Positions 52-38,610 of a DNA stretch of 64,000 bases are shown in pieces; position 1 is the stretch's first letter; every line of letters starts with the position of its first letter. The position numbers and the translations under genes are program-made. The notes under the pieces were generated by a model. It was not told the DNA's origin, made no database searches, and was given only the letters and a program-made list of their open reading frames with translations. Origin of the DNA: an uncultured virus (IMG/VR IMGVR_UViG_3300026963_000002) (taxonomy: Duplodnaviria; Heunggongvirae; Uroviricota; Caudoviricetes; Thumleimavirales; Hafunaviridae); IMG/VR virus record IMGVR_UViG_3300026963_000002; one strand, written 5' to 3'.

Positions 52-123
52 GCCTGGGTAGCTTAGCGGTAAAGCGCGTCCTTGGTAAGGACGAGACCGC
101 GGGTTCAAATCCCGCCTCAGGCT
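52..123 (+). tRNA. tRNA-Thr(GGT); probable integration site (attL)
   Basis: Cloverleaf GCCTGGG/CTCAGGC acceptor, GCTT/AAGC D stem, CGTCC-TTGGTAA-GGACG anticodon arm, GCGGG-TTCAAAT-CCCGC T arm; immediately upstream of an integrase. Confidence 0.95.
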
Positions 124-306
124 TTCACGGGCTACACGGCCTGTATTCCCACTTTGCGTGCTTCTTGGGAGCGAATCAATGTACCCCAAGAAAGCACTCT
201 ACCCACAAACGGCCACCCCCGCGCCGTCTTGCGATTCCGAGAACTGTCAGGACACTATAAACTCAGAACCCCATCAGCGGTGTTCCTCGCGCGTGGTGAT
301 AGGCCG

Positions 307-1500
307 ATGAACCGCGACGACCCCCTCGAAGGGATGGAAATGAGCGCGGCATCCGAGGATATACCACCCGCGCCCGAACCCATCGAGTTCGGCTTCCCCC
401 TCGTGAGCAAACGCTCGCGCGAAGACCTCGCGGAGTTCGGACTCAACATGGTTCAGGACTACCACGACTTCAAGAAGGACGTGCTGACGTGGCTCGGCAA
501 CTACGGGAAAAACCCCGACAAGCACGAGGGGCTGGCCCCTACCACGCTTGAGAGTACCCACTACAAGCTCGAAACCGTCTTCCGCTGGCTATGGAAGTAC
601 GAGGGCCAATACACCACGACGTTCACGCCTGAACACGCGGACAAGTTCATCACCATCCTGAATCAGGCCGACTCGATGATTGACAGCACCGTACTCCACC
701 ACGCGAAGGACATCAAGCGGTACTTCCGCTTCTGCAACCACGCACGCGGGAAGGAGTACGAGTGGGAACTCGATCTCGAACTCTCCGCGAGCAACGGCGA
801 CGAACGAGAGTACCTACGTCGCGCCGCGTTCGAGCCGCTGTATCAGGCCGCGCTCCAACATTCGTCAGTCAAGAGCTACTACTCCTGCTCACCGGAGGAA
901 CGCAAGGAGCTGAAGTCCTACGTCTCTCAGCGGCTCCAAGTCCCGAAGTCGAAGGTCGGCCCGGACGAGTTCAAGGAGGCAAACTCGTGGAAGTACCCCT
1001 CGATGATAGCCACGACTCTCGATACCGGGCTTCGACCCATCGAGGTGGGACGCGCCAAGGTGTCTTGGGTGAACCTCGAAGACAACGAGCTGAACATCCC
1101 GAAGACAGAATCCACGAAGAACGAGGGCCATTGGAATTGCGCTATCCAGAACCGGACGGCGAAGGCGCTCGAACGCTGGATAGACGAGCGGAGTACGATG
1201 GAGAAGTACGACGGTCGGGACGAACTATGGCTCACGCAGAAGGCGAAGCCGTACAACTCCGACTCGTGTAACGGTCTACTTGATCGAATCATCGAGTCGG
1301 GGAACGTCCCGATTCCCGAACACCGCGAGGACGAAATCTCGTGGTACTCCATCCGTCACGGCGTAGCGACGTATTGGGCGAACCACGTCGGCCCGCACCA
1401 CGCGAAAGAACAGCTCCGACACAAGAGCGTCACGACGACGATGAAGTACCTTCACTCGGATTCTGATACCCGAGGGAGCGCCGTCGAACAAATCTGGTAG
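307..1500 (+). CDS. int: Tyrosine recombinase / integrase
   Basis: TGLRPIE, YSIRHG, QLRHKSVTTTMKY catalytic motifs; ORF-track start at 82 overlaps the tRNA, so ATG 307 preferred. Confidence 0.92.
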   Translation: MNRDDPLEGMEMSAASEDIPPAPEPIEFGFPLVSKRSREDLAEFGLNMVQDYHDFKKDVLTWLGNYGKNPDKHEGLAPTTLESTHYKLETVFRWLWKYEGQYTTTFTPEHADKFITILNQADSMIDSTVLHHAKDIKRYFRFCNHARGKEYEWELDLELSASNGDEREYLRRAAFEPLYQAALQHSSVKSYYSCSPEERKELKSYVSQRLQVPKSKVGPDEFKEANSWKYPSMIATTLDTGLRPIEVGRAKVSWVNLEDNELNIPKTESTKNEGHWNCAIQNRTAKALERWIDERSTMEKYDGRDELWLTQKAKPYNSDSCNGLLDRIIESGNVPIPEHREDEISWYSIRHGVATYWANHVGPHHAKEQLRHKSVTTTMKYLHSDSDTRGSAVEQIW

Positions 1501-1605: not shown

Positions 1606-3435
1606 ATGGAGCCGAAGACGATCTCGGATGTTATACCGGAACTAAACAGCACGTATCTGATTCCTGCTATCCAGCGAGAGTTCGTATGGGATACCGACCA
1701 GATTCTCGATCTATTCGACTCGATTCTCCGTGACTACCCCATCGGTTCTCTGCTACTATGGAAAGTCCGAGACGACCGGGCGCAGAGTGAAATCAAATAC
1801 AAGTTCGTCAGCGACTACATCGAGGAACCGAACTACCCCCGAGAGATTGACGATGTAAACCACCACAACCCGAAGTGGAGCGAAGACTTAGATGGGGCGC
1901 TCCCGCCAACGACGAATCTCGTTATCGACGGCCAGCAACGACTGACCGCGCTCAACATCGGACTCAAGGGGAGCTTCTGTGAGCGGAAATTCAATGCCCG
2001 CCGGGATGAGGTCAGTTCGTGGGTTCGCAAGAAACTCTATCTGAACCTTCTCTCGAATCCGAACCGAATCACCGAAGGAATCGGTCGCCGGTATCATCTC
2101 GAATTTAAGAAGCCTCACCCTGAGAACGACTCCGAACACTACTGGTATCCCGTAGGCGAGATACTCCAATACCGCGACGAGAACGACTTTAACAACTATC
2201 TGTTCGAGGTCGAGGACGAGATAGAACAGCACCTAATAGACGAAGACCCCGACCTCAGCGCCGAACGAGTCAGAGAATACAAAAAGTGGGCAAAGCAGAA
2301 TCTCAATAGTCTCTGGACGAACGTTCACGACCGCGATCATCTCAACTTCTTCACCGACGACACCGAAGATCACGACCGCATTTTGGACATATTCATCCGT
2401 ATCAATCAGGGCGGTACACAGCTTCAACACCACGAAATTCTACTATCCCTCGCAACGTCAGAGTGGCAACAGGATGAGCCTTTCATCGTCGCAAGAGAGG
2501 CCGTCCCTAAACTGCGAGATCGTCTGAACCGTGATGTTCCCGGTGGGAACGAACCGTTCACGACAAACTTCGTTCTCCGCGCCCTGCTGACCTGCTCTGG
2601 TATGGAGGTTCAGTATCGCCTCTCGAACTTCAGCGCCGAGAACCTTGAGCGGATGAAAGAGGTTTGGCTAACAGACCGATTCAGGAACAGTCTGGAGGAG
2701 TTCGTGAGTCTGATGCGCGGGTACGACATTACGATCTCGCACGTTCACAGTCCTCTACTCTCGGCCCCTGCCATCTACTTCCTCTACAAGCACGATAGTC
2801 CACCGTTGGGGTGGAATAGTGCCCAAGGTCACGATGCTCGACGGGACGTTCTCTACTGGTTGTGCGCGGCAAAGCTCAAACGACTGTCCCGGCTGTCGTC
2901 CGCCCAAATTGCCGAGGCGGTTCGAGATGAGATAGATAACACAGACGAGGTTCGATTCCCGATAGACCGCATCGACGACCGGCTAAGAACAAGCTACGGA
3001 GAATCCGTCTACCTCTCGAATGATGACATAGACAGCATCTTCGATGAAGCGACGTACAACACCCAACGGGGAGAGTTCCTTCTCCATCTGCTCCGCTTCC
3101 CCGAATCAGCCGACCCCGGCCACAGTTACGAAGCCGATCACATCTTCCCGCAAAGTCAGGTAGAAGACGAGTACCCGGACTTGATGCACCGCGTGGGCAA
3201 CCTCCAATTCCTTCGTGACGACGAGAACCTGTCCAAACACAGTAGCGACTTCGCTAATTGGCTTACTTCACAGACCGAGGAATACAAGGAGAGACACTAT
3301 ATACCGGAGTCGGAAGATGGGTCGCTATACGAATTGGGGAACTTCCCCGAGTTCGTGGAACAGCGCGAACAATTGATTCGTGAACATCTGCTTGAGGTCT
3401 GTGACGAACTACGCGAAGCACACGAAACGAATTAA
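1606..3435 (+). CDS. GmrSD-like (DUF262 + DUF1524 HNH) restriction/defence protein
   Basis: IPAIQREFVW, PIGSLLLW, IDGQQRLT, FIRINQGG; C-terminal EADHIFPQ...GNLQFL...N. Confidence 0.85.
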   Translation: MEPKTISDVIPELNSTYLIPAIQREFVWDTDQILDLFDSILRDYPIGSLLLWKVRDDRAQSEIKYKFVSDYIEEPNYPREIDDVNHHNPKWSEDLDGALPPTTNLVIDGQQRLTALNIGLKGSFCERKFNARRDEVSSWVRKKLYLNLLSNPNRITEGIGRRYHLEFKKPHPENDSEHYWYPVGEILQYRDENDFNNYLFEVEDEIEQHLIDEDPDLSAERVREYKKWAKQNLNSLWTNVHDRDHLNFFTDDTEDHDRILDIFIRINQGGTQLQHHEILLSLATSEWQQDEPFIVAREAVPKLRDRLNRDVPGGNEPFTTNFVLRALLTCSGMEVQYRLSNFSAENLERMKEVWLTDRFRNSLEEFVSLMRGYDITISHVHSPLLSAPAIYFLYKHDSPPLGWNSAQGHDARRDVLYWLCAAKLKRLSRLSSAQIAEAVRDEIDNTDEVRFPIDRIDDRLRTSYGESVYLSNDDIDSIFDEATYNTQRGEFLLHLLRFPESADPGHSYEADHIFPQSQVEDEYPDLMHRVGNLQFLRDDENLSKHSSDFANWLTSQTEEYKERHYIPESEDGSLYELGNFPEFVEQREQLIREHLLEVCDELREAHETN

Positions 3436-3468: not shown

Positions 3469-3951
3469 CTAATTCCCGACAAGGACTTCAACCGAGCGCA
3501 TCCCGAGATCGTTCAGACGGTAGTCTTTCTTCCGACCATCTCCCTCGTGGGGTCGTTTCTCCACAACGTCACGCTCCGATAATTCCCACAAGATTTGGCT
3601 CACGTCGTCCGGGTCAATTTCTGAATCCTCAGGGAGCTTTTCCCTGATCTCAGTCGTCGTATGCCATTTCTCGCCGTTATGTTCGTATAGAAATTCAGCG
3701 AGCTTTCGCGTCCGCGACCCCTCCTCGAAGTTGACGATCTCCGGGTCATCGTCCTCGGACTTCTTCGGTTCGATGGATTCGCCCGTAATGTATTCCGTCA
3801 GGTCAATCGGGGAGTCGGCTTCGACTCGAACGCTGATTGATTCGACCGAATCAGCGAATCCTGCCTCCTTGATGAACTGGTTGAAGGCGTGTAGACCCTG
3901 TTCGCCGGACAATTCCAGAGTCATAACACCCTCGGGTTGGTCAGACGACAT
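3469..3951 (-). CDS. Winged-helix (MarR-like) DNA-binding protein, possible repressor
   Basis: C-terminal TTTEIREKL...VSQILWELSERDVVEKR...DGRKKDYRL wHTH pattern. Confidence 0.7.
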   Translation of the reverse strand: MSSDQPEGVMTLELSGEQGLHAFNQFIKEAGFADSVESISVRVEADSPIDLTEYITGESIEPKKSEDDDPEIVNFEEGSRTRKLAEFLYEHNGEKWHTTTEIREKLPEDSEIDPDDVSQILWELSERDVVEKRPHEGDGRKKDYRLNDLGMRSVEVLVGN

Positions 3952-4236: not shown

Positions 4237-4785
4237 TCACCGGAAATCCTCGTGGAGTCGAGAGGGAGTCGGCCCGGTCTGGTCGTTGTATTTGTTCCCG
4301 TTCTCCTCGGAGTACGCCACGTCAGGCTTCGTCTTCATATCGTGAAGCGCGAGCTGGCAAATCCGCATCCCATCGCGGAGACGGATGGGGTACGGTGCGG
4401 CGTTGAACAGTTCGAGCGTGATCTGCCCCCGGAATCCGGGGTCGATGAAGCCCGCGTTGTGGATGAATAGGCCGAGCCGTCCGACCGACGAGCGACCGTG
4501 GAGGATACCCACCTTGTCGTCGGGTACGGTGATGCTCTCCTCGGTGTGAGCCAGCGCGAACTTCCCCGGAGAAAGCGAAAGCTCAGAGGTTCTTTCGTAG
4601 TAGTCGGGGTAGGAGTCGGCGTCGTCAACTTCAACAACGCCGGTCGCGGCAGGAATACGAAGCTCCGGCCCGAGGTGCAAATCCATCGAGGCGGGTTCGA
4701 CAGCGAGCGTCTTCCCGTTACCACGAACGGCTCCGAGATCGCCACGGCTAATTGCGTGCTGAATATCGTGCTGAGAGAGAATCAT
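4237..4785 (-). CDS. dcd: dCTP deaminase
   Basis: MILS, PASMDLHLG, GRSSVGRLGL, AGFIDPGFRGQITLE, RICQL; start overlaps thyX stop (ATGA). Confidence 0.92.
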   Translation of the reverse strand: MILSQHDIQHAISRGDLGAVRGNGKTLAVEPASMDLHLGPELRIPAATGVVEVDDADSYPDYYERTSELSLSPGKFALAHTEESITVPDDKVGILHGRSSVGRLGLFIHNAGFIDPGFRGQITLELFNAAPYPIRLRDGMRICQLALHDMKTKPDVAYSEENGNKYNDQTGPTPSRLHEDFR

Positions 4786-24711: not shown

Positions 24712-25141
24712 CGTACACCACCGGGGCGATTGCGAGGTACTTCTCCGAGTCCTCGGGGTGAATTACCGCGATAAAGTTCCACTCGGGGTGGACGTAGATC
24801 GCGTCCTTGTTCTCCCGAAGGTCGATGTCGAAGAACTCCTCTGCCTTCTCGAAGTAGTCCTTCTGAATCCGGGTCTTCACCGTGGCGTCCTCGGCCTCCT
24901 CCGGCCACAGATCAACTACCTCAGTCTCCCCGGCGATAATGTCCTGAATGACCTCAGGGTGTTCCGACGCGAGAGTGTAGTCCCACGTTATCCGCTTGTT
25001 CTTCTCCCTCAGGTCTTCGCCGTAGGTTCCGAGGCAGACCGTGTTCTCGTCGTTCTCTATCGCTCCTTCGAGCGTTTCGGTATTCGCGCTTCCGAACAGT
25101 TCCTCGAACTTCTCCTCATCAGTTTGGATTGTAACACTCAT
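24704..25141 (-). CDS. Early hypothetical protein
   Basis: Acidic packed ORF. Confidence 0.7.
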   Translation of the reverse strand: MSVTIQTDEEKFEELFGSANTETLEGAIENDENTVCLGTYGEDLREKNKRITWDYTLASEHPEVIQDIIAGETEVVDLWPEEAEDATVKTRIQKDYFEKAEEFFDIDLRENKDAIYVHPEWNFIAVIHPEDSEKYLAIAPVVYGE

Positions 25142-28236: not shown

Positions 28237-28539
28237 TCTTGCTTGAGTCTAAGACTCAGAGAAGTATCTATAAGTCTTTATCGCTATTGGTCAGCTCGTC
28301 ATAGCCGGGACGACCACCTCCCGACGACGCCCCACCGTAGGGCGTTTCGCCATTACTCTTGCCAGTACCGCCGCTCGATGTTGATTACCTCCGATACATC
28401 ACGGCGGGGCTTCGTCTTTCCACGTCGACGCCAACACGCCTTCCTCCGAAGGGAGTAGAAGTAATCGTAGTCGGCTTGCTCGATCTTCTCAATATCTTCT
28501 TCCATACTACCGGGGTGACACCGCAGGATGTTCGTCGGC

Positions 28540-34033: not shown

Positions 34034-34327
34034 CTAAAGGTCACTCAGGGCCTTTTCCAGCGCCGAGTCGAACAGCGCCACAAGTTGCTCGATAGCCTGT
34101 TCCTCTCGGGGAATCGGCTCTCGCCACTCCCCGTCGATGCCGAGAATCAGGTATTCTTCCTCACTCGGGATTACGTCAATCCCTCCCCACGATTGGGGTT
34201 CCTCGTAGTACCTCGCCACCGAAGCCTTGCGGAGTCGGTAAGCGTAGTCTCCGATCTTCTTTTCGAGGTCTTCTTCGCTTAGGTCGATGCGTCGATCTGT
34301 CGTTGGTGTCTTTTCTGCTACTGCCAT
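34034..34327 (-). CDS. Early hypothetical protein
   Basis: MAVAEKTP...; preceded by GGTGACACC. Confidence 0.65.
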   Translation of the reverse strand: MAVAEKTPTTDRRIDLSEEDLEKKIGDYAYRLRKASVARYYEEPQSWGGIDVIPSEEEYLILGIDGEWREPIPREEQAIEQLVALFDSALEKALSDL

Positions 34328-34358
34328 CGGTGTCACCCGGTAGTTTTCACTACCAGAG

Positions 34359-34400
34359 GCTCCGCTACGGGGTCGAACCGTAGTTTTCGCCACTCGGAGC
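34359..34400 (-). ncRNA. Mini-tRNA element
   Basis: GCTCCG-AGTGGCGAAAA-CTACGG-TTCGACC-CCGTAG-CGGAGC. Confidence 0.7.
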
Positions 34401-34613
34401 AAAGGGTTAGAGTTGCTTACTTGAGTCTTTAGAGCCGATTGTAACCTCGTCGATGATCGGCTCGCTTGGCTCGTTCTAAGTCACAGTACCAGCAGTTACA
34501 GTCCGGTTTCAGGGAATGTGGTCGTTTCATTTGGGGTTACTCGCATCGAGTCGCTGTCCCCCGAAAAGTTCCTCACTCTAAGAGACAACGTTGCGGTATT
34601 AAGTCTTTGCTGT

Positions 34614-34964
34614 TTACATCCAAGCGCCGGTATATGCCGCTCCCCGGCCCTCTCGAATCTTCTCCTGTCGTTCTTTGCGTCGTTGCTCCTGCTTCTGAAG
34701 GCTCTTGAGTTTCTTCCCCGTCCCTCGGTAGGTCGTGATGATCGACTCATCCCTCGGGTCGATGACTACCGTGATGAGCTGGCCGCTCCATCGAGTCTCT
34801 AAGAGAACCCGTCCTTTGCGACCGAGGTGTGCCTCACCATTCTCAATCGCTTGGTCAATCGCACTCATCGGAATCCGTCGCTCCCGCCGCCGGTTCCCTC
34901 CGTGAGAAAGAGGGTCGTATTCGTAGTTCTTTGCGTCTCGGCTGAAAGTCGGTGTCTCGTTCAT
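34614..34964 (-). CDS. DUF4258-like protein
   Basis: SHG..RRRER.I....I.QAIENG...VVID....IITTY. Confidence 0.6.
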   Translation of the reverse strand: MNETPTFSRDAKNYEYDPLSHGGNRRRERRIPMSAIDQAIENGEAHLGRKGRVLLETRWSGQLITVVIDPRDESIITTYRGTGKKLKSLQKQEQRRKERQEKIREGRGAAYTGAWM

Positions 34965-34969
34965 AGTTG

Positions 34970-35299
34970 TCACTCGCTGTCGTGGTATTCGGAGTAGCGC
35001 CGCCGGTACTTCTCGGCCTTCTTCTTCGCCTCGATCTCGTCGTCGGTCAGGCCGGAGCCTTCGTATTCCTCAGGCTCCGACGTTTTCTCGTGGTGGGGAT
35101 GAATCTCACTCGGGTCGGGAGTCCATCCCATAAACTCAGCAAGTTCCTCTCCTTCGAGCAGTTCTCCCTCGCGTCGTTCCTCAACTACCGCTCCGAAGGC
35201 TCGATGCCTCTGGTCGATCTTGAGGTCAGCGCGGTGGCTCCATTGGTTTTCTTCCTCCCGTTGGGAGGTTCGTACCGTTCCGAGCCTCGGGGCGAACAT
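34970..35299 (-). CDS. Early hypothetical protein
   Basis: Packed ORF. Confidence 0.6.
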   Translation of the reverse strand: MFAPRLGTVRTSQREEENQWSHRADLKIDQRHRAFGAVVEERREGELLEGEELAEFMGWTPDPSEIHPHHEKTSEPEEYEGSGLTDDEIEAKKKAEKYRRRYSEYHDSE

Positions 35300-35468
35300 T
35301 ACTCGCTCTCCTCACTATCCGCCGCGTTGAGCGCCGCTAACTTGTCCATCTCACGTCGATAATCCTCGTCGCTAAGGGGGTTCGTGAGACTGCCAGCGCC
35401 GCCGCTACGTCGTGGGTATCGCTCTCGTCGTTCCATAGGTGTCACTCGTGGTAGCCGTTGCTACCGAG

Positions 35469-35509
35469 GCCCTTCCGGGGAGTCGAACCCCGGTGTCGCC
35501 ACTAAGGGT
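35469..35509 (-). ncRNA. Mini-tRNA element
   Basis: ACCCTT-AGTGGCGACA-CCGGGG-TTCGACT-CCCCGG-AAGGGC. Confidence 0.65.
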
Positions 35510-35537
35510 TATTGAAGCGTCTTTGAGTCTTTGCGCC

Positions 35538-36431
35538 TTACTCGGAGTTTTCGAGCAACTGCTGAAGAAGGGCGTCCTTCTCGCGCTGGCTCATCTCACT
35601 CACGTCGGGAACCTCCGGCTCGGGAAGTTCGACGTGTTCCTCGTAGTCTTCCCAGTTGAGACTGATCTGATTCTCTACGATGTGAACCAGCAGAGCCTCG
35701 CCGTACTTGTTCCCGATACCCTTCACTTCCGTAGGGTCGAATAGTTCCTCGGGAAGATCGAGGCCGGTGTCACTCTCGCCGTCGCCGCCGCTGTTGCTCT
35801 TATCGTTCGATTCCGCCGTTTCATCGACTTCGACTTCTCCGAAGTAGTCACTTAGAAGGGTCTTGAGGCGTTCCTCGGCTTCCTCGTAAGTCGGGACACT
35901 CCCGACCTCGAAGCCTTCCGCCGCCTCTTGACGACCTTCACTTGCCACTACCGGGACAATCGGCTCCCCGTCGCTGTTGATGGGAACCATCACGGTGTCA
36001 CTTGCCTCGATGATTTCCTCCGAGAGCAGTAGCTCACGCTGGAACTCATCCGCTTCGGCAAGTGGCTTCACACCGAACCCGCCGTTTTCCTCCTTTAAGG
36101 AGTCGTACTTGCCACTAAAGGCGTTGTAGTCGTTGGCGGTGTAGTCGGTGGAAAGGTAGAACGCTCTCCCGAGAGAGCCGTCGCTATCGTTAGCCTCGCA
36201 CGGCTCGATCAGGTTCACATTCCGGGGCGCTTCACACCACTTAGCGATTTCACTCTCGCCGCCCTTCTTCACAGAATCCTCTCCGAACGCTTTGCGAACC
36301 TCGTGAGCGAGGCTCACCACGGAGTAGTCGTCCTTCTGGAGAAGGTCGTAGAGGTCACTAACAGGGTTAGCGCCGATCTTGCTCACCGTATTCTCAACGA
36401 AGTCGCCGTCGCTGTTGACTTTCACAGACAT
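35538..36431 (-). CDS. First early protein, acidic, unknown function
   Basis: MSVKVNSDG...; possible HhH (GIGNK) near C-terminus. Confidence 0.75.
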   Translation of the reverse strand: MSVKVNSDGDFVENTVSKIGANPVSDLYDLLQKDDYSVVSLAHEVRKAFGEDSVKKGGESEIAKWCEAPRNVNLIEPCEANDSDGSLGRAFYLSTDYTANDYNAFSGKYDSLKEENGGFGVKPLAEADEFQRELLLSEEIIEASDTVMVPINSDGEPIVPVVASEGRQEAAEGFEVGSVPTYEEAEERLKTLLSDYFGEVEVDETAESNDKSNSGGDGESDTGLDLPEELFDPTEVKGIGNKYGEALLVHIVENQISLNWEDYEEHVELPEPEVPDVSEMSQREKDALLQQLLENSE

Positions 36432-36489
36432 AGTTCGTTGGGTGTCACTTAGTGCTACTTTCCGAAGGGGAAGCACCAAACCCCCCATT

Positions 36490-38120: not shown

Positions 38121-38610
38121 CGAAACACCGACGGACGGACGGGAGACGGCCCACAACGTACAAACAGGGGAAACGCGGGCCGGAACGCGAGAGACGGAAC
38201 GCGCGGGACGGGACGGGAGACGGACGGACATAGGAGAGACGGACGGGACGGCCCCCGTACTTGCCGAACGCGGCGTTTTCAGGGGCGGGGAGATACCGGA
38301 TAACGGCCCGTATGGACGGCCCGAGAGGGGGAGAGACGGCCCGCGCGGGGCGTGAGACGGCCCCAGTAGGCCCGAGAGACGGGACGGGACGGACGGGACG
38401 GGGCGGGCCGTGAGTGAGATCGAGAGGGACGGGCCGACCGGGACGGACGGGACGGGCCGACCGGCCCCAGTAGGGACGGGGCGGGACGGGGCGGGGGCCG
38501 ACCGGAGCCACTAACGAACAGGCAGGCACGCCGCCCGCGCGTAGGGTGGCCAACAACGCACATATCAGCAGGTACAAGCCCCAACGACCGGGCCGAGGGA
38601 CGAACAGGGA
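38121..38610 (+). repeat. Purine-skewed GGGAC/GGAC low-complexity tract
   Basis: Many GGGACG/GGACG units, very few T, direct repeat CGGCCCCAGTAGG at 38358 and 38462. Confidence 0.8.

What the first reader, a model, noticed from the sequence alone, without database searches (positions are those of the whole stretch)
34325..35509. Repeated mini-tRNA + hairpin + GTGACACC + ATG cassette in front of early genes
Seen on the minus strand twice: GCTCCG-AGTGGCGAAAA-CTACGG-TTCGACC-CCGTAG-CGGAGC (34359-34400) and ACCCTT-AGTGGCGACA-CCGGGG-TTCGACT-CCCCGG-AAGGGC (35469-35509). The stems differ in sequence but stay paired, the TTCGA T-loop and AGTGGCGA linker (GG as in a D-loop) are kept, and the acceptor plus T stack is 11-12 bp. 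Each is followed by CTC, a GGTAG/CTACC hairpin, GTGACACC, one base and ATG. A hairpin plus GTGACACC also precedes the gene starting at 36431. Known: RNase P and tRNase Z cut such acceptor/T-arm t-elements in Haloferax. Inference: the virus uses host tRNA-processing enzymes to cut its early polycistron into hairpin-protected mRNAs, and/or releases ~42-nt tRNA mimics as decoys.
Basis: partly seen in the sequence, partly recalled or inferred. Interest (0 to 1): 0.85.

Follow-up and report, generated by a model that had tools for sequence, protein, structure and literature searches.

The report
Mini-tRNA cut-signals between halovirus early genes
Two short RNA folds that copy only the top half of a tRNA, each followed by a small hairpin, sit between early genes of this archaeal provirus and of many related salt-lake viruses, and most likely tell the host's tRNA-trimming enzymes where to cut viral messenger RNA.

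Summary
Both cassettes are at the stated minus-strand coordinates, and a covariance model finds exactly these two in 64 kb (68 and 61 bits; next 13). All 41 HF1/HF2-like phage records matched by blastn carry both. Stems are kept by compensatory and G·U changes (97.5% of cells paired against 31-48% in slid controls).

The elements belong to a wider family I did not find in print. Full-length copies, 1-4 per record, occur in 12 of 48 halovirus contigs searched and in the siphovirus HHTV-2. They share a linker GG, a UUCGAYU loop and a near-invariant U after the discriminator. A stable hairpin follows in 21 of 29 copies, against 13% of random positions. Hammerhead ribozymes lie on the same strand in 6 records and the window.

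Best reading (about 0.55): viral t-elements. Host tRNase Z and possibly RNase P cut read-through early transcripts, leaving a hairpin-capped downstream mRNA.

Caveats:
- No RNA ends are mapped at the borders.
- The only published 5' end (HF2 T-4384) lies inside element 2, so the HF1-type cassette also overlaps a promoter.
- GTGACACC is specific to HF1-like viruses and occupies the Shine-Dalgarno slot.

This is a new variant of a known kind.

The parts
35467..35510 (-). Mini-tRNA element 1. Acceptor CCCTT 35508..35504 pairs with AAGGG 35474..35470. T-arm is 35493..35475 with loop TTCGACT. Linker is AGTGGCGACA. C35468 is at the discriminator position and U35467 follows it.
   Evidence: Sequence; R1 match of 60.6 bits; pair counts.
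35450..35465 (-). Hairpin after element 1: GGTAGC-AACG-GCTACC.
   Evidence: Folded (-8.3 kcal/mol). Relatives carry compensatory variants AGTAGC/GCTACT, GATAGC/GCTATC and GGTAGT/ACTACC.
35434..35445 (-). GTGACACC box (35445..35438), then T, then the ATG of a 45-aa ORF (35299-35436).
   Evidence: The box is invariant in 24 of 24 distinct cassettes.
35520..35532 (-). AAAGACTCAAAGA motif upstream of element 1. It resembles the 'alpha' motif of HF2 class I intergenic repeats and begins 5 nt after the stop codon of gene 1.
   Evidence: Repeat family D3; sequence; PMC8707807 section 3.5 and Table S1 (fragment IRA, 2880-2937).
34357..34401 (-). Mini-tRNA element 2. Acceptor GCTCCG 34400..34395 pairs with CGGAGC 34364..34359. 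T-arm is 34383..34365 with loop TTCGACC. C34358 is the discriminator and U34357 follows. G34391 is homologous to the HF2 5' end T-4384.
   Evidence: Sequence; R1 match of 68.3 bits; alignment A1 column 13 with HF2 sequence and PMC8707807 section 3.5.
34337..34356 (-). Hairpin after element 2: CTGGTAGT-GAAA-ACTACCGG.
   Evidence: -11.8 kcal/mol, 8 bp; covariation.
34325..34336 (-). GTGACACC box (34336..34329), then G, then the ATG of the next ORF (34034-34327).
   Evidence: The longer TTG-start ORF (34034..34402) is not frame-conserved, because the HF2 linker is 2 nt shorter.
34424..34431 (-). AAAGACT motif upstream of element 2. It overlaps the TAA stop (34431..34429) of a 33-aa CxxC ORF.
   Evidence: The HF2 homologue is CTAAAGACTTAGAA, upstream of T-4384 (PMC8707807).
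34580..34608 (-). Third AAAGACT copy. It has a class I repeat 'gamma'-like end (TGTCTCTTAGAG) and no mini-tRNA.
   Evidence: Repeat family D3; sequence. The HF2 homologue is the fragment 'IRB' 3666-3706 in Table S1 of PMC8707807.
36429..36448 (-). GTGACACC (36448..36441), 10 nt, then the ATG of the first early gene (297 aa, 35538-36431).
28286..28352 (-). Type II hammerhead ribozyme on the same strand. The layout is stop codon, ribozyme, AAAGACTTA promoter repeat, then the ATG (28236) of a helicase-like gene.
   Evidence: 49.4 bits, gathering score 37; sequence; Pfam.

Best explanation
What it is: the two elements are viral t-elements. These are about 43-nt RNA folds that keep only the part of a tRNA read by end-processing enzymes. 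That part is a 5-6 bp acceptor stem stacked on a 6 bp T-stem, a canonical UUCGAYU T-loop, and a short linker whose GG could pair with the T-loop as D-loop G18/G19 do.

Where they sit: between co-directional early genes, so they are transcribed as part of read-through polycistronic RNA.

How it likely works (inferred): host tRNase Z cuts after the discriminator-equivalent base, just before a near-invariant U, and RNase P possibly cuts at the 5' side. The downstream cistron then begins with one or a few free nucleotides followed at once by a stable hairpin. That hairpin should protect a 5'-monophosphate end from 5'-to-3' decay. A Shine-Dalgarno-like stretch follows (GTGACACC in HF1-like viruses, GAGGTG-type elsewhere), then the start codon. 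The upstream mRNA either ends at the RNase P site or keeps the mini-tRNA as a 3' cap.

Extra layer in HF1-like viruses: the cassette also overlaps a promoter, with an AAAGACT motif and the HF2 T-4384 5' end in the linker. Promoter-started and processed RNAs would therefore share almost the same leader.

Shown: structure, conservation, family, context.
Inferred: which enzymes act, where they cut, and that the hairpin protects.
For: 1. Selection on the fold.
- In 24 distinct cassettes from the window plus 20 HF1-like records, 97.5% of cells pair, against 31-48% with slid partners. Nine of 18 pairs have changes on both sides.
- Within element 2 the acceptor stem reads GCUCCG/CGGAGC, GCCCCG/CGGGGC or GCUCUG/CAGAGC, and GUUCCG with a G·U pair.
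- Across 32 distinct family members, 94.4% pair against 44-53% slid, and 10 of 12 pairs have double changes. I count 13 G·U cells in the pair table; these pair only in sense-strand RNA.

2. tRNA-specific features are kept.
- Linker GG: 30 and 31 of 32.
- T-loop positions: 31-32 of 32, fitting the GGTTCRANYCC motif used to find plant t-elements (PMC1920247, passages read).
- U after the discriminator position: 31 of 32.
- A or U before the stem: 26 of 32.

3. Spread.
- Exactly two copies each in the window, HF2, HRTV-8 and Serpecor1, and one in the siphovirus HHTV-2.
- Full-length matches in 12 of 48 other viral records, 28 places, 1-4 per record, on one strand.
- None of the 27 places for which a locus was held overlaps an ARAGORN tRNA.

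4. Coupled hairpin. A fold of -6 kcal/mol or better, starting within 4 nt, follows 21 of 29 elements. Among members found by a model that does not include the hairpin it follows 18 of 26. The rate at 2,900 random positions of the same loci is 13% (p 6e-11).

5. Context. In most of the 29 copies an upstream ORF stop lies within about 100 nt, and an ATG opening an ORF lies 3-60 nt downstream.

6. Parallel device. Hammerhead II ribozymes lie on the same strand as the mini-tRNAs in 6 of 6 records that hold both and in the window. In G022, G010 and G032 they are only 0.5-1.8 kb away.

7. Precedent. Haloferax t-elements are cut by RNase P and tRNase Z in vivo to release crRNAs (PMC4326828, PMC4946936; passages read).

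8. HF2 data (PMC8707807).
- Long transcript F2, primed at 15.6 kb, is detected at 3073-3093 but not in gene 005. So an RNA boundary lies at or near element 1 (Fig. S2 legend, Table S4).
- The authors suggest long transcripts are processed but name no signal (Discussion).
Against: - No RNA end is mapped at either border, and no usable raw RNA reads were found.
- The only published 5' end (HF2 T-4384) lies inside element 2, 9 nt after the start of the acceptor stem. That fits initiation from the upstream motif rather than RNase P or tRNase Z cleavage (PMC8707807 section 3.5).
- RT-PCR detects RNA continuous through element 2 (F2 spans 010-200). It also detects RNA running from gene 005 into the T-loop of element 1 (F1 cDNA primer 2937-2924). 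Cleavage, if any, is therefore incomplete at 5 h after infection.
- Folding energies are unremarkable, and the acceptor stem is absent from the 121-nt minimum-energy folds.
- The outermost acceptor pair is unpaired in 14 of 32 members.
- Two methanogen tRNase Z enzymes needed a mature 5' end (PMC7479834, passages read). Whether haloarchaeal enzymes accept a D-arm-less, anticodon-arm-less substrate was not established here.
- The Rfam mascRNA match is below threshold (25 bits against 42.5).
- Alignment A4 was fitted to the model's structure, which favours pairing.
Confidence: 0.55

Rival explanations
1. Promoter plus 5' leader only. The AAAGACT motif and the AGTGGCG linker would be the promoter and initiator. 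RNA would start at the linker G, and the T-arm and second hairpin would simply be leader structures of a primary transcript. The acceptor pairing would have no role.
For: - HF2 5' end T-4384 is the linker G, behind CTAAAGACTTAGAA (PMC8707807 section 3.5).
- The spacing from AAAGACT to that G is the same in HF2 and the window, at 39 nt (sequences).
- The authors cloned the homologous stretches as candidate promoters (Table S1: IRA, IRB, IRC).
- A third AAAGACT copy with no mini-tRNA looks like a class I repeat promoter.
Against: - The 5' acceptor strand lies upstream of that start, yet it co-varies with the 3' strand, including G·U states.
- Family members in other viruses lack the AAAGACT motif, and there is no general AT-rich box upstream (AT 0.43-0.50 against 0.45 background).
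- Primer extension cannot tell initiation from processing. The paper does not say which RNA source (infected cells or reporter) gave T-4384 (section 2.8).
- A promoter here is compatible with the best explanation.
Confidence: 0.15
2. The released mini-tRNA of about 43 nt is itself the product. It could be a tRNA mimic that receives CCA and titrates or misdirects a host factor that binds the tRNA elbow or acceptor end. Candidates include a defence nuclease, the CCA-adding enzyme, or a modification or export factor.
For: - The elbow-forming features are conserved: linker GG in 30-31 of 32, invariant T-loop.
- There are several copies per genome in the early region.
- Plant t-element RNAs and mascRNA are stable released species (PMC1920247, passages read; mascRNA from Rfam RF01684's description).
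Against: - The tight coupling to a downstream hairpin, a Shine-Dalgarno-like stretch and a start codon is what an mRNA-end signal needs, not what a small-RNA gene needs.
- Acceptor sequences vary freely, so no particular tRNA is mimicked.
- There is no expression data.
Confidence: 0.15
3. Recombination features. The elements would be decayed tRNA or att-site remnants, or repeated cassettes that mainly serve as crossover points for shuffling early genes, as reported for promoter-stem-loop cassettes of T4-type phages (recalled, not checked).
For: - Gene content between the two cassettes differs among relatives, with spacing of about 970 to 1,530 nt.
- HRTV-17 has the element 1 cassette of HRTV-14 but the element 2 cassette of HRTV-8.
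- These viruses integrate at a tRNA gene. The window starts with tRNA-Thr plus an integrase.
Against: - Compensatory changes and G·U pairs show selection on an RNA fold, not decay.
- All copies are in the sense orientation.
- The real attP is elsewhere (PMC8707807 section 3.6).
- Acceptor stems differ between copies and match no single tRNA.
Confidence: 0.07
4. A cis-regulatory RNA bound by a viral or host protein. It would act as a translational operator or antitermination-type switch for the downstream gene and would not be cut.
For: - GTGACACC is invariant (24 of 24 cassettes).
- It recurs at 4-5 conserved, sense-only positions in 21 of 21 HF1-like loci, including inside gene 1. That looks like a recognition site.
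Against: - GTGACACC is absent from the other family members, so it cannot explain the mini-tRNA.
- The tRNA-specific features point to tRNA-binding enzymes.
Confidence: 0.08

Closest known systems
t-elements of Haloferax volcanii (tRNA-like structure upstream of 5S rRNA; Hölzle et al. 2008 and 2012, known to me only through citing papers PMC4326828, PMC4946936 and PMC7714728)
   Same: Both occur in the haloarchaeal setting. Both are tRNA-like folds without decoding function, embedded in a longer transcript. [quoted passage not shown]
   Different: These elements are viral, lie between protein-coding genes, and come in several copies per genome. They are coupled to a downstream hairpin and a start codon. 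Their cleavage has not been tested. I could not read the primary papers or reach a host genome, so the host element's arm composition was not compared.
Plant mitochondrial t-elements (Forner et al. 2007, PMC1920247; passages read)
   Same: Both carry the GGTTCRANYCC T-arm motif within non-canonical tRNA-like folds that flank mRNAs. In plants, mRNA 5' ends arise by RNase Z and 3' ends by RNase P, and the released t-element RNA carries non-encoded C residues.
   Different: The plant elements are organellar and mostly cloverleaf-like remnants of tRNA genes. No conserved adjoining hairpin is reported for them. They are not a repeated module with a fixed architecture.
mascRNA / MEN-beta tRNA-like (Rfam RF01684)
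   Same: Both are tRNA-like folds inside a long polymerase transcript. By the family's description, mascRNA is cut by RNase P and RNase Z. Element 1 aligns end to end with the model.
   Different: The score is 25 bits against a gathering score of 42.5, with E 0.19. The anticodon-stem part of the model (15 positions) is missing. The family is vertebrate and no homology is implied.
HF2 class I intergenic repeats (promoters; PMC8707807, sections 3.1-3.7 and supplement read)
   Same: Both have an AAAGACT 'alpha'-type motif upstream, an intergenic position, and a mapped 5' end 39 nt downstream of the motif in HF2 (T-4384).
   Different: The cassettes lack the beta and gamma motifs (no CGTCTNNTAGAG; sequence). 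The paper states that the left 16 kb has promoters without an extended pattern. It does not mention the tRNA-like fold.
Hammerhead ribozymes of HF1-group viruses (noted in PMC7230728 Discussion; Rfam RF02276)
   Same: Both lie in intergenic gaps of the same gene arrays, on the same strand. The hammerhead is a known RNA-cutting device.
   Different: The hammerhead is self-cleaving, needs no host enzyme, and has an unrelated fold.

Membership tests
t-element (tRNA-like processing signal) | tRNA-like fold with an acceptor stem stacked on a T-arm that carries the GGTTCRANYCC motif | tested here: met
   Sequences; pair counts; T-loop columns 31-32 of 32.
t-element (tRNA-like processing signal) | Not a decoding tRNA (no anticodon arm, not called as a tRNA) | tested here: met
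   ARAGORN calls only tRNA-Thr and tRNA-Asn in the window. Rfam tRNA matches only those two. Of the family places checked, 0 of 27 overlap a called tRNA.
t-element (tRNA-like processing signal) | Lies within a longer transcript, next to the end of another RNA | tested here: met
   The elements are intergenic between co-directional ORFs. In HF2, RT-PCR product F1 runs from gene 005 into the T-loop of element 1, and F2 runs through element 2 (PMC8707807 Table S4).
t-element (tRNA-like processing signal) | RNA ends coincide with the element's borders | tested here: inconclusive
   No raw RNA reads were available. The one published 5' end (HF2 T-4384) is inside element 2, not at a border. The 5' limit of F2 falls somewhere between gene 005 and nt 3073, which includes element 1.
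t-element (tRNA-like processing signal) | Cut by RNase P and/or tRNase Z | not testable with these tools
   This needs enzyme assays or end mapping.
Rfam mascRNA-menRNA (RF01684) | Score at or above the gathering threshold | tested here: not met
   Element 1 scores 25 bits against 42.5. Element 2 is not listed.
Canonical tRNA (RF00005 / ARAGORN) | Cloverleaf with D-arm and anticodon arm | tested here: not met
   Only 10-11 nt separate the acceptor stem from the T-stem.
HF2 class I intergenic repeat | Alpha, beta and gamma motifs, with the transcription start in gamma | tested here: not met
   Only the alpha-like AAAGACT is present upstream of elements 1 and 2. The gamma core CGTCTNNTAGAG is absent. 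The third copy at 34580-34608 does have a gamma-like end.

The most novel reading that the evidence does not exclude
Tailed viruses of haloarchaea use a modular RNA punctuation system. In intergenic slots of their early and middle operons they place either a self-cleaving hammerhead or a mini-tRNA that recruits host tRNase Z and RNase P. The mini-tRNA comes as a fixed two-part module with a hairpin that becomes the protective 5' cap of the processed, monophosphorylated mRNA. In HF1-like viruses the module is merged with a promoter, so transcription starts and processing yield the same leader. This would be tRNA punctuation of mRNAs, as in mitochondria, but evolved in archaeal viruses. The released minihelices may also act as tRNA mimics.
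Probability: 0.4. Interest if true: 0.78.

Novelty: new variant of a known kind. Interest (0 to 1): 0.7.

Why it matters
How archaeal viruses turn very long primary transcripts into the short mRNAs seen on Northern blots is an open question that the HF2 authors raised themselves. This family offers a concrete, testable signal with a predicted cut site to the nucleotide. It would extend the use of tRNA-processing enzymes for mRNA maturation, known from mitochondria and a few cellular RNAs, to viruses of archaea.

It also gives annotators a reason not to extend ORFs through these regions. Several deposited records start the gene after element 2 at an upstream codon inside the element.

The module could be useful in practice. 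A mini-tRNA plus hairpin is a compact, natural counterpart to the engineered t-element constructs already used in Haloferax.

Tried and rejected
RNA evidence
- The search for public RNA runs listed 9 runs, all kept as contigs, with at most 0.20 of the words. One is on record as RNA, at a 0.06 share. Contigs cannot show RNA ends, so nothing was laid.

Host genomes
- The window's own assembly is not held, and I obtained no haloarchaeal genome handle. So I could not run the model on host genomes or compare it with the 5S-upstream t-element.
- Haloferax volcanii appears only as an unnamed control.

Collection scans by pattern
- One search returned mostly T-arm-only matches and one search returned almost only bacterial contigs. 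Of the 80 IMG/VR loci, one (L080) was a clear full-length member (33 bits).
- The 80 genome loci were not examined further.

Other dead ends
- The protein search with the first early gene found only 7 known isolates.
- Coding reading of element 2 (TTG-start ORF 34034..34402) is rejected. Linker length differs by 1-2 nt among relatives, so the frame is not kept.
- A general promoter directly upstream of all family members is not supported.
- An intrinsic terminator is rejected: there is no T-run after either hairpin.
- Hölzle 2008 (PMC2327364) is not held. The 2012 Biochimie paper is known to me only from reference lists.

Literature
- Searches found no paper describing these elements in haloviruses. 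I saw listings for all, and read passages of the papers cited in this report.
Full report
**What the window is**

The 64-kb window is an HF1/HF2-like haloarchaeal myovirus (genus Haloferacalesvirus).
- The region 34200-36600 matches 41 phage records at 80-95% identity; HRTV-8 is the top-listed hit, at 86.5%.
- The window starts with tRNA-Thr followed by a tyrosine integrase. It is therefore probably an integrated provirus, which puts the early region mid-window.
- Early genes run on the minus strand from the ATG at 36431 downwards.

- Element 1 stacks 5+6 bp, because its outermost 'pair' is A/C. Element 2 stacks 6+6 bp.
- The linker-plus-T-arm pattern occurs twice, against none in 100 shuffles.
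- A covariance model built from 15 distinct copies (R1) scores the two sites at 68.3 and 60.6 bits. Nothing else in the window exceeds 13.2 bits.
- Thermodynamics alone is unimpressive. The isolated elements fold as proposed but with z about -1. In 121-nt contexts the T-arm and second hairpin are predicted, but the acceptor stem is not.

**Conservation and covariation in HF1-like viruses**

- Both cassettes are present in all 41 HF1-like records matched by blastn.
- I extracted them from the window and 20 records. That gave 24 distinct cassettes, aligned as A1.
- With the three-helix structure, 97.5% of 432 cells pair, against 31-48% when partners are slid. Nine of 18 pairs change on both sides.
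- Much of that signal is the difference between the two paralogous elements. There are also separate compensatory variants within element 2:

| Acceptor stem of element 2 | Viruses |
|---|---|
| GCUCCG/CGGAGC | most |
| GCCCCG/CGGGGC | HRTV-8, HRTV-17, HJTV-2, HSTV-3, HSTV-4, HRTV-24 |
| GCUCUG/CAGAGC | Serpecor1 |
| GUUCCG (one G·U pair) | HRTV-21 |

- HRTV-5 has a G·U pair in element 1.
- The second hairpin varies as GGUAGC/GCUACC, AGUAGC/GCUACU, GAUAGC/GCUAUC and GGUAGU/ACUACC.
- Relative to element 1, element 2 carries a 7-nt insertion (TGCTCCG) that creates its own 5' acceptor strand. The old CCCTT survives just upstream. The pairing was rebuilt rather than inherited.
- The TTG-start ORF that some records annotate through element 2 is not frame-conserved.

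**A wider family**

- The siphovirus HHTV-2 has one copy (58.6 bits) between two co-directional genes.
- I took terminase homologues and collected 78 IMG/VR loci.
- I then ran R1 over 48 whole records: 46 terminase-selected contigs plus two from a pattern scan. Fourteen had a match at E ≤ 0.01.
- One match is a real tRNA-Lys and one record has only partial T-arm matches.
- That leaves 12 records with full-length matches at 28 places. There are 1-4 per record, always on one strand, and successive copies lie 0.65-7.5 kb apart.
- Many of the 48 records are fragments. Among the seven that are at least 90% complete, four have full-length matches.
- Aligned to the model (A4, 32 distinct rows), 94.4% of cells pair against 44-53% slid. 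Ten of 12 pairs have double changes, and I count 13 G·U cells in the pair table. This alignment is fitted to the model, which favours pairing.
- Column counts:

| Feature | Count of 32 |
|---|---|
| Linker G-G | 30 and 31 |
| T-loop UUCGAYU positions | 31-32 |
| U two positions after the acceptor 3' strand | 31 |
| A or U before the stem | 26 |

**Architecture**

I analysed 29 elements: the window's two, HHTV-2, and 26 new ones. I left out one exact duplicate, one place for which no locus was returned, the true tRNA and the two partial matches.
- A fold of -6 kcal/mol or better, starting within 4 nt of the element's end, follows 21 of the 29. It follows 18 of the 26 new members, which were found by a model that does not contain the hairpin. 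The rate at 2,900 random positions in the same loci is 13% (p about 6e-11).
- In most copies an ORF-opening ATG follows within 3-60 nt, often behind a GAGGTG-type stretch. In most, an upstream ORF ends within about 100 nt.
- There is no general AT-rich box upstream.

**What is already known at these sites**

Russ, Pfeiffer and Dyall-Smith (PMC8707807; sections 2.2, 2.8, 3 and 4, figure legends and supplement read) report the following.
- They mapped a 5' end, T-4384, in HF2 by primer extension. In the HF2 sequence this is the first G of the linker GG of element 2, homologous to window G34391.
- They note that CTAAAGACTTAGAA upstream equals the alpha motif of class I repeats.
- Their Table S1 shows they cloned the three AAAGACT-bearing stretches of this region as candidate promoters: 2880-2937, 3666-3706 and 4343-4385. 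Only T-4384 is reported.
- Table S4 and Fig. S2 show a short transcript F1, from at or before 1855 to a cDNA primer inside the T-loop of element 1.
- They also show a long transcript F2, detected back to 3073-3093 but not in gene 005. An RNA boundary therefore lies at or near element 1, while RNA runs through element 2.
- The Discussion proposes that long transcripts are processed into the 1-2.5 kb species seen earlier, but names no signal.
- Neither this paper nor the 2020 comparative paper (PMC7230728, passages read) mentions the tRNA-like fold at these sites.

**Mechanism**

- The retained parts are those contacted by tRNA end-processing enzymes: the acceptor/T stack, the T-loop, and a GG able to form the elbow. 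That reading rests on established knowledge of RNase P and tRNase Z and on PMC7479834 (passages read).
- With an 11-12 bp stack, tRNase Z would cut after the discriminator-equivalent base. That is directly before the near-invariant U, and the hairpin usually begins at the next base.
- A processed RNA with a 5' monophosphate and almost no free 5' tail before a stable stem should resist 5'-end-dependent decay. This step is inference.
- Haloferax does process t-elements with RNase P and tRNase Z in vivo (PMC4326828, PMC4946936).
- Type II hammerhead ribozymes give independent circumstantial support. One lies at 28286-28352 on the same strand, laid out as stop codon, ribozyme, AAAGACTTA promoter repeat, ATG.
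- In 6 of 6 other records that hold both element types, they are on the same strand. In G022, G010 and G032 they are 0.5-1.8 kb apart.
I tested the co-occurrence here, but not slot homology.

**The promoter complication**

- In HF1-like viruses the cassette clearly overlaps a promoter-like motif, and the published 5' end is inside the element.
- RNA started there lacks the 5' acceptor strand, so it cannot form the minihelix.
- Since that strand co-varies with its partner, the read-through RNA must matter.
- The simplest reconciliation is that both routes operate and give nearly the same leader: hairpin, GTGACACC, AUG.
- Primer extension does not distinguish initiation from processing, so the nature of T-4384 stays open.

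**GTGACACC**

- It is invariant in 24 of 24 cassettes.
- It recurs at 4-5 conserved, sense-only positions in 21 of 21 HF1-like loci, including two sites inside gene 1.
- One of the two internal sites is followed after 3 nt by an in-frame ATG (window 35990..35988).
- It sits where other family members have GAGGTG-type Shine-Dalgarno stretches, and it contains GGTGA or GTGA. Its match to the 16S 3' end is recalled, not tested.
- Its 8-nt invariance, and its position 10 nt from the first gene's ATG, are not explained by that alone.

**Verdict**

This is a new variant of a known kind, namely viral, repeated, hairpin-coupled t-elements. Literature searches found no description of them in haloviruses.

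Noticed in passing
window 28286-28352 (-): Type II hammerhead ribozyme (49.4 bits) between a stop codon and an AAAGACTTA class I-type promoter repeat, just upstream of a helicase-like gene (ATG 28236). Hammerheads in HF1-group viruses are mentioned, but left unexplained, in PMC7230728.
   Followed up: partly
window 52-123 (+), 82-1500 (+), 1606-3435 (+): A full tRNA-Thr(GGT) is directly followed by a tyrosine integrase and then a GmrSD-type restriction endonuclease gene. The window looks like an integrated Haloferacalesvirus provirus that begins at its tRNA attachment site and carries a possible defence gene.
   Followed up: partly
window 35766-35773, 35994-36001, 36441-36448 (-): Besides the two cassette copies, GTGACACC recurs upstream of and twice inside the first early gene, at positions conserved in 15-21 of 21 relatives and never on the other strand. 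The copy at 36001..35994 is followed after 3 nt by an in-frame ATG (35990), which may be an internal start.
   Followed up: partly
window 34580-34608 (-): A third AAAGACT-motif copy with a class I repeat 'gamma'-like end (TGTCTCTTAGAG), between the DUF4258 gene and a 33-aa CxxC ORF. The HF2 paper states there are no intergenic repeats in the left 16 kb, yet its Table S1 lists the homologous stretch (3666-3706) as a cloned candidate.
   Followed up: no
window 38174-38495 (+): A cluster of 7 degenerate copies of a GGGACGG-rich 30-nt repeat in the non-coding stretch between the early genes and the terminase side. This is probably the terminal-repeat or packaging region of the virus.
   Followed up: no
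L355/L366 (G033 24902-24945, -): One family member has both an altered linker (AGTAGCG in place of the GG) and an altered T-loop (GGTGCAACTCC). This may be a joint loss or co-variation of the elbow contact.
   Followed up: no
L133-L136, L143-L144 (HJTV-1, HCTV-7, HRTV-9, HRTV-13, HSTV-3, HRTV-24): The deposited annotations start the gene after element 2 at an upstream codon inside the mini-tRNA, giving 366-369 nt. HF2, HRTV-19, Hardycor2 and Hardygib1 start it at the conserved ATG, giving 291 nt. The longer calls are probably wrong.
   Followed up: partly
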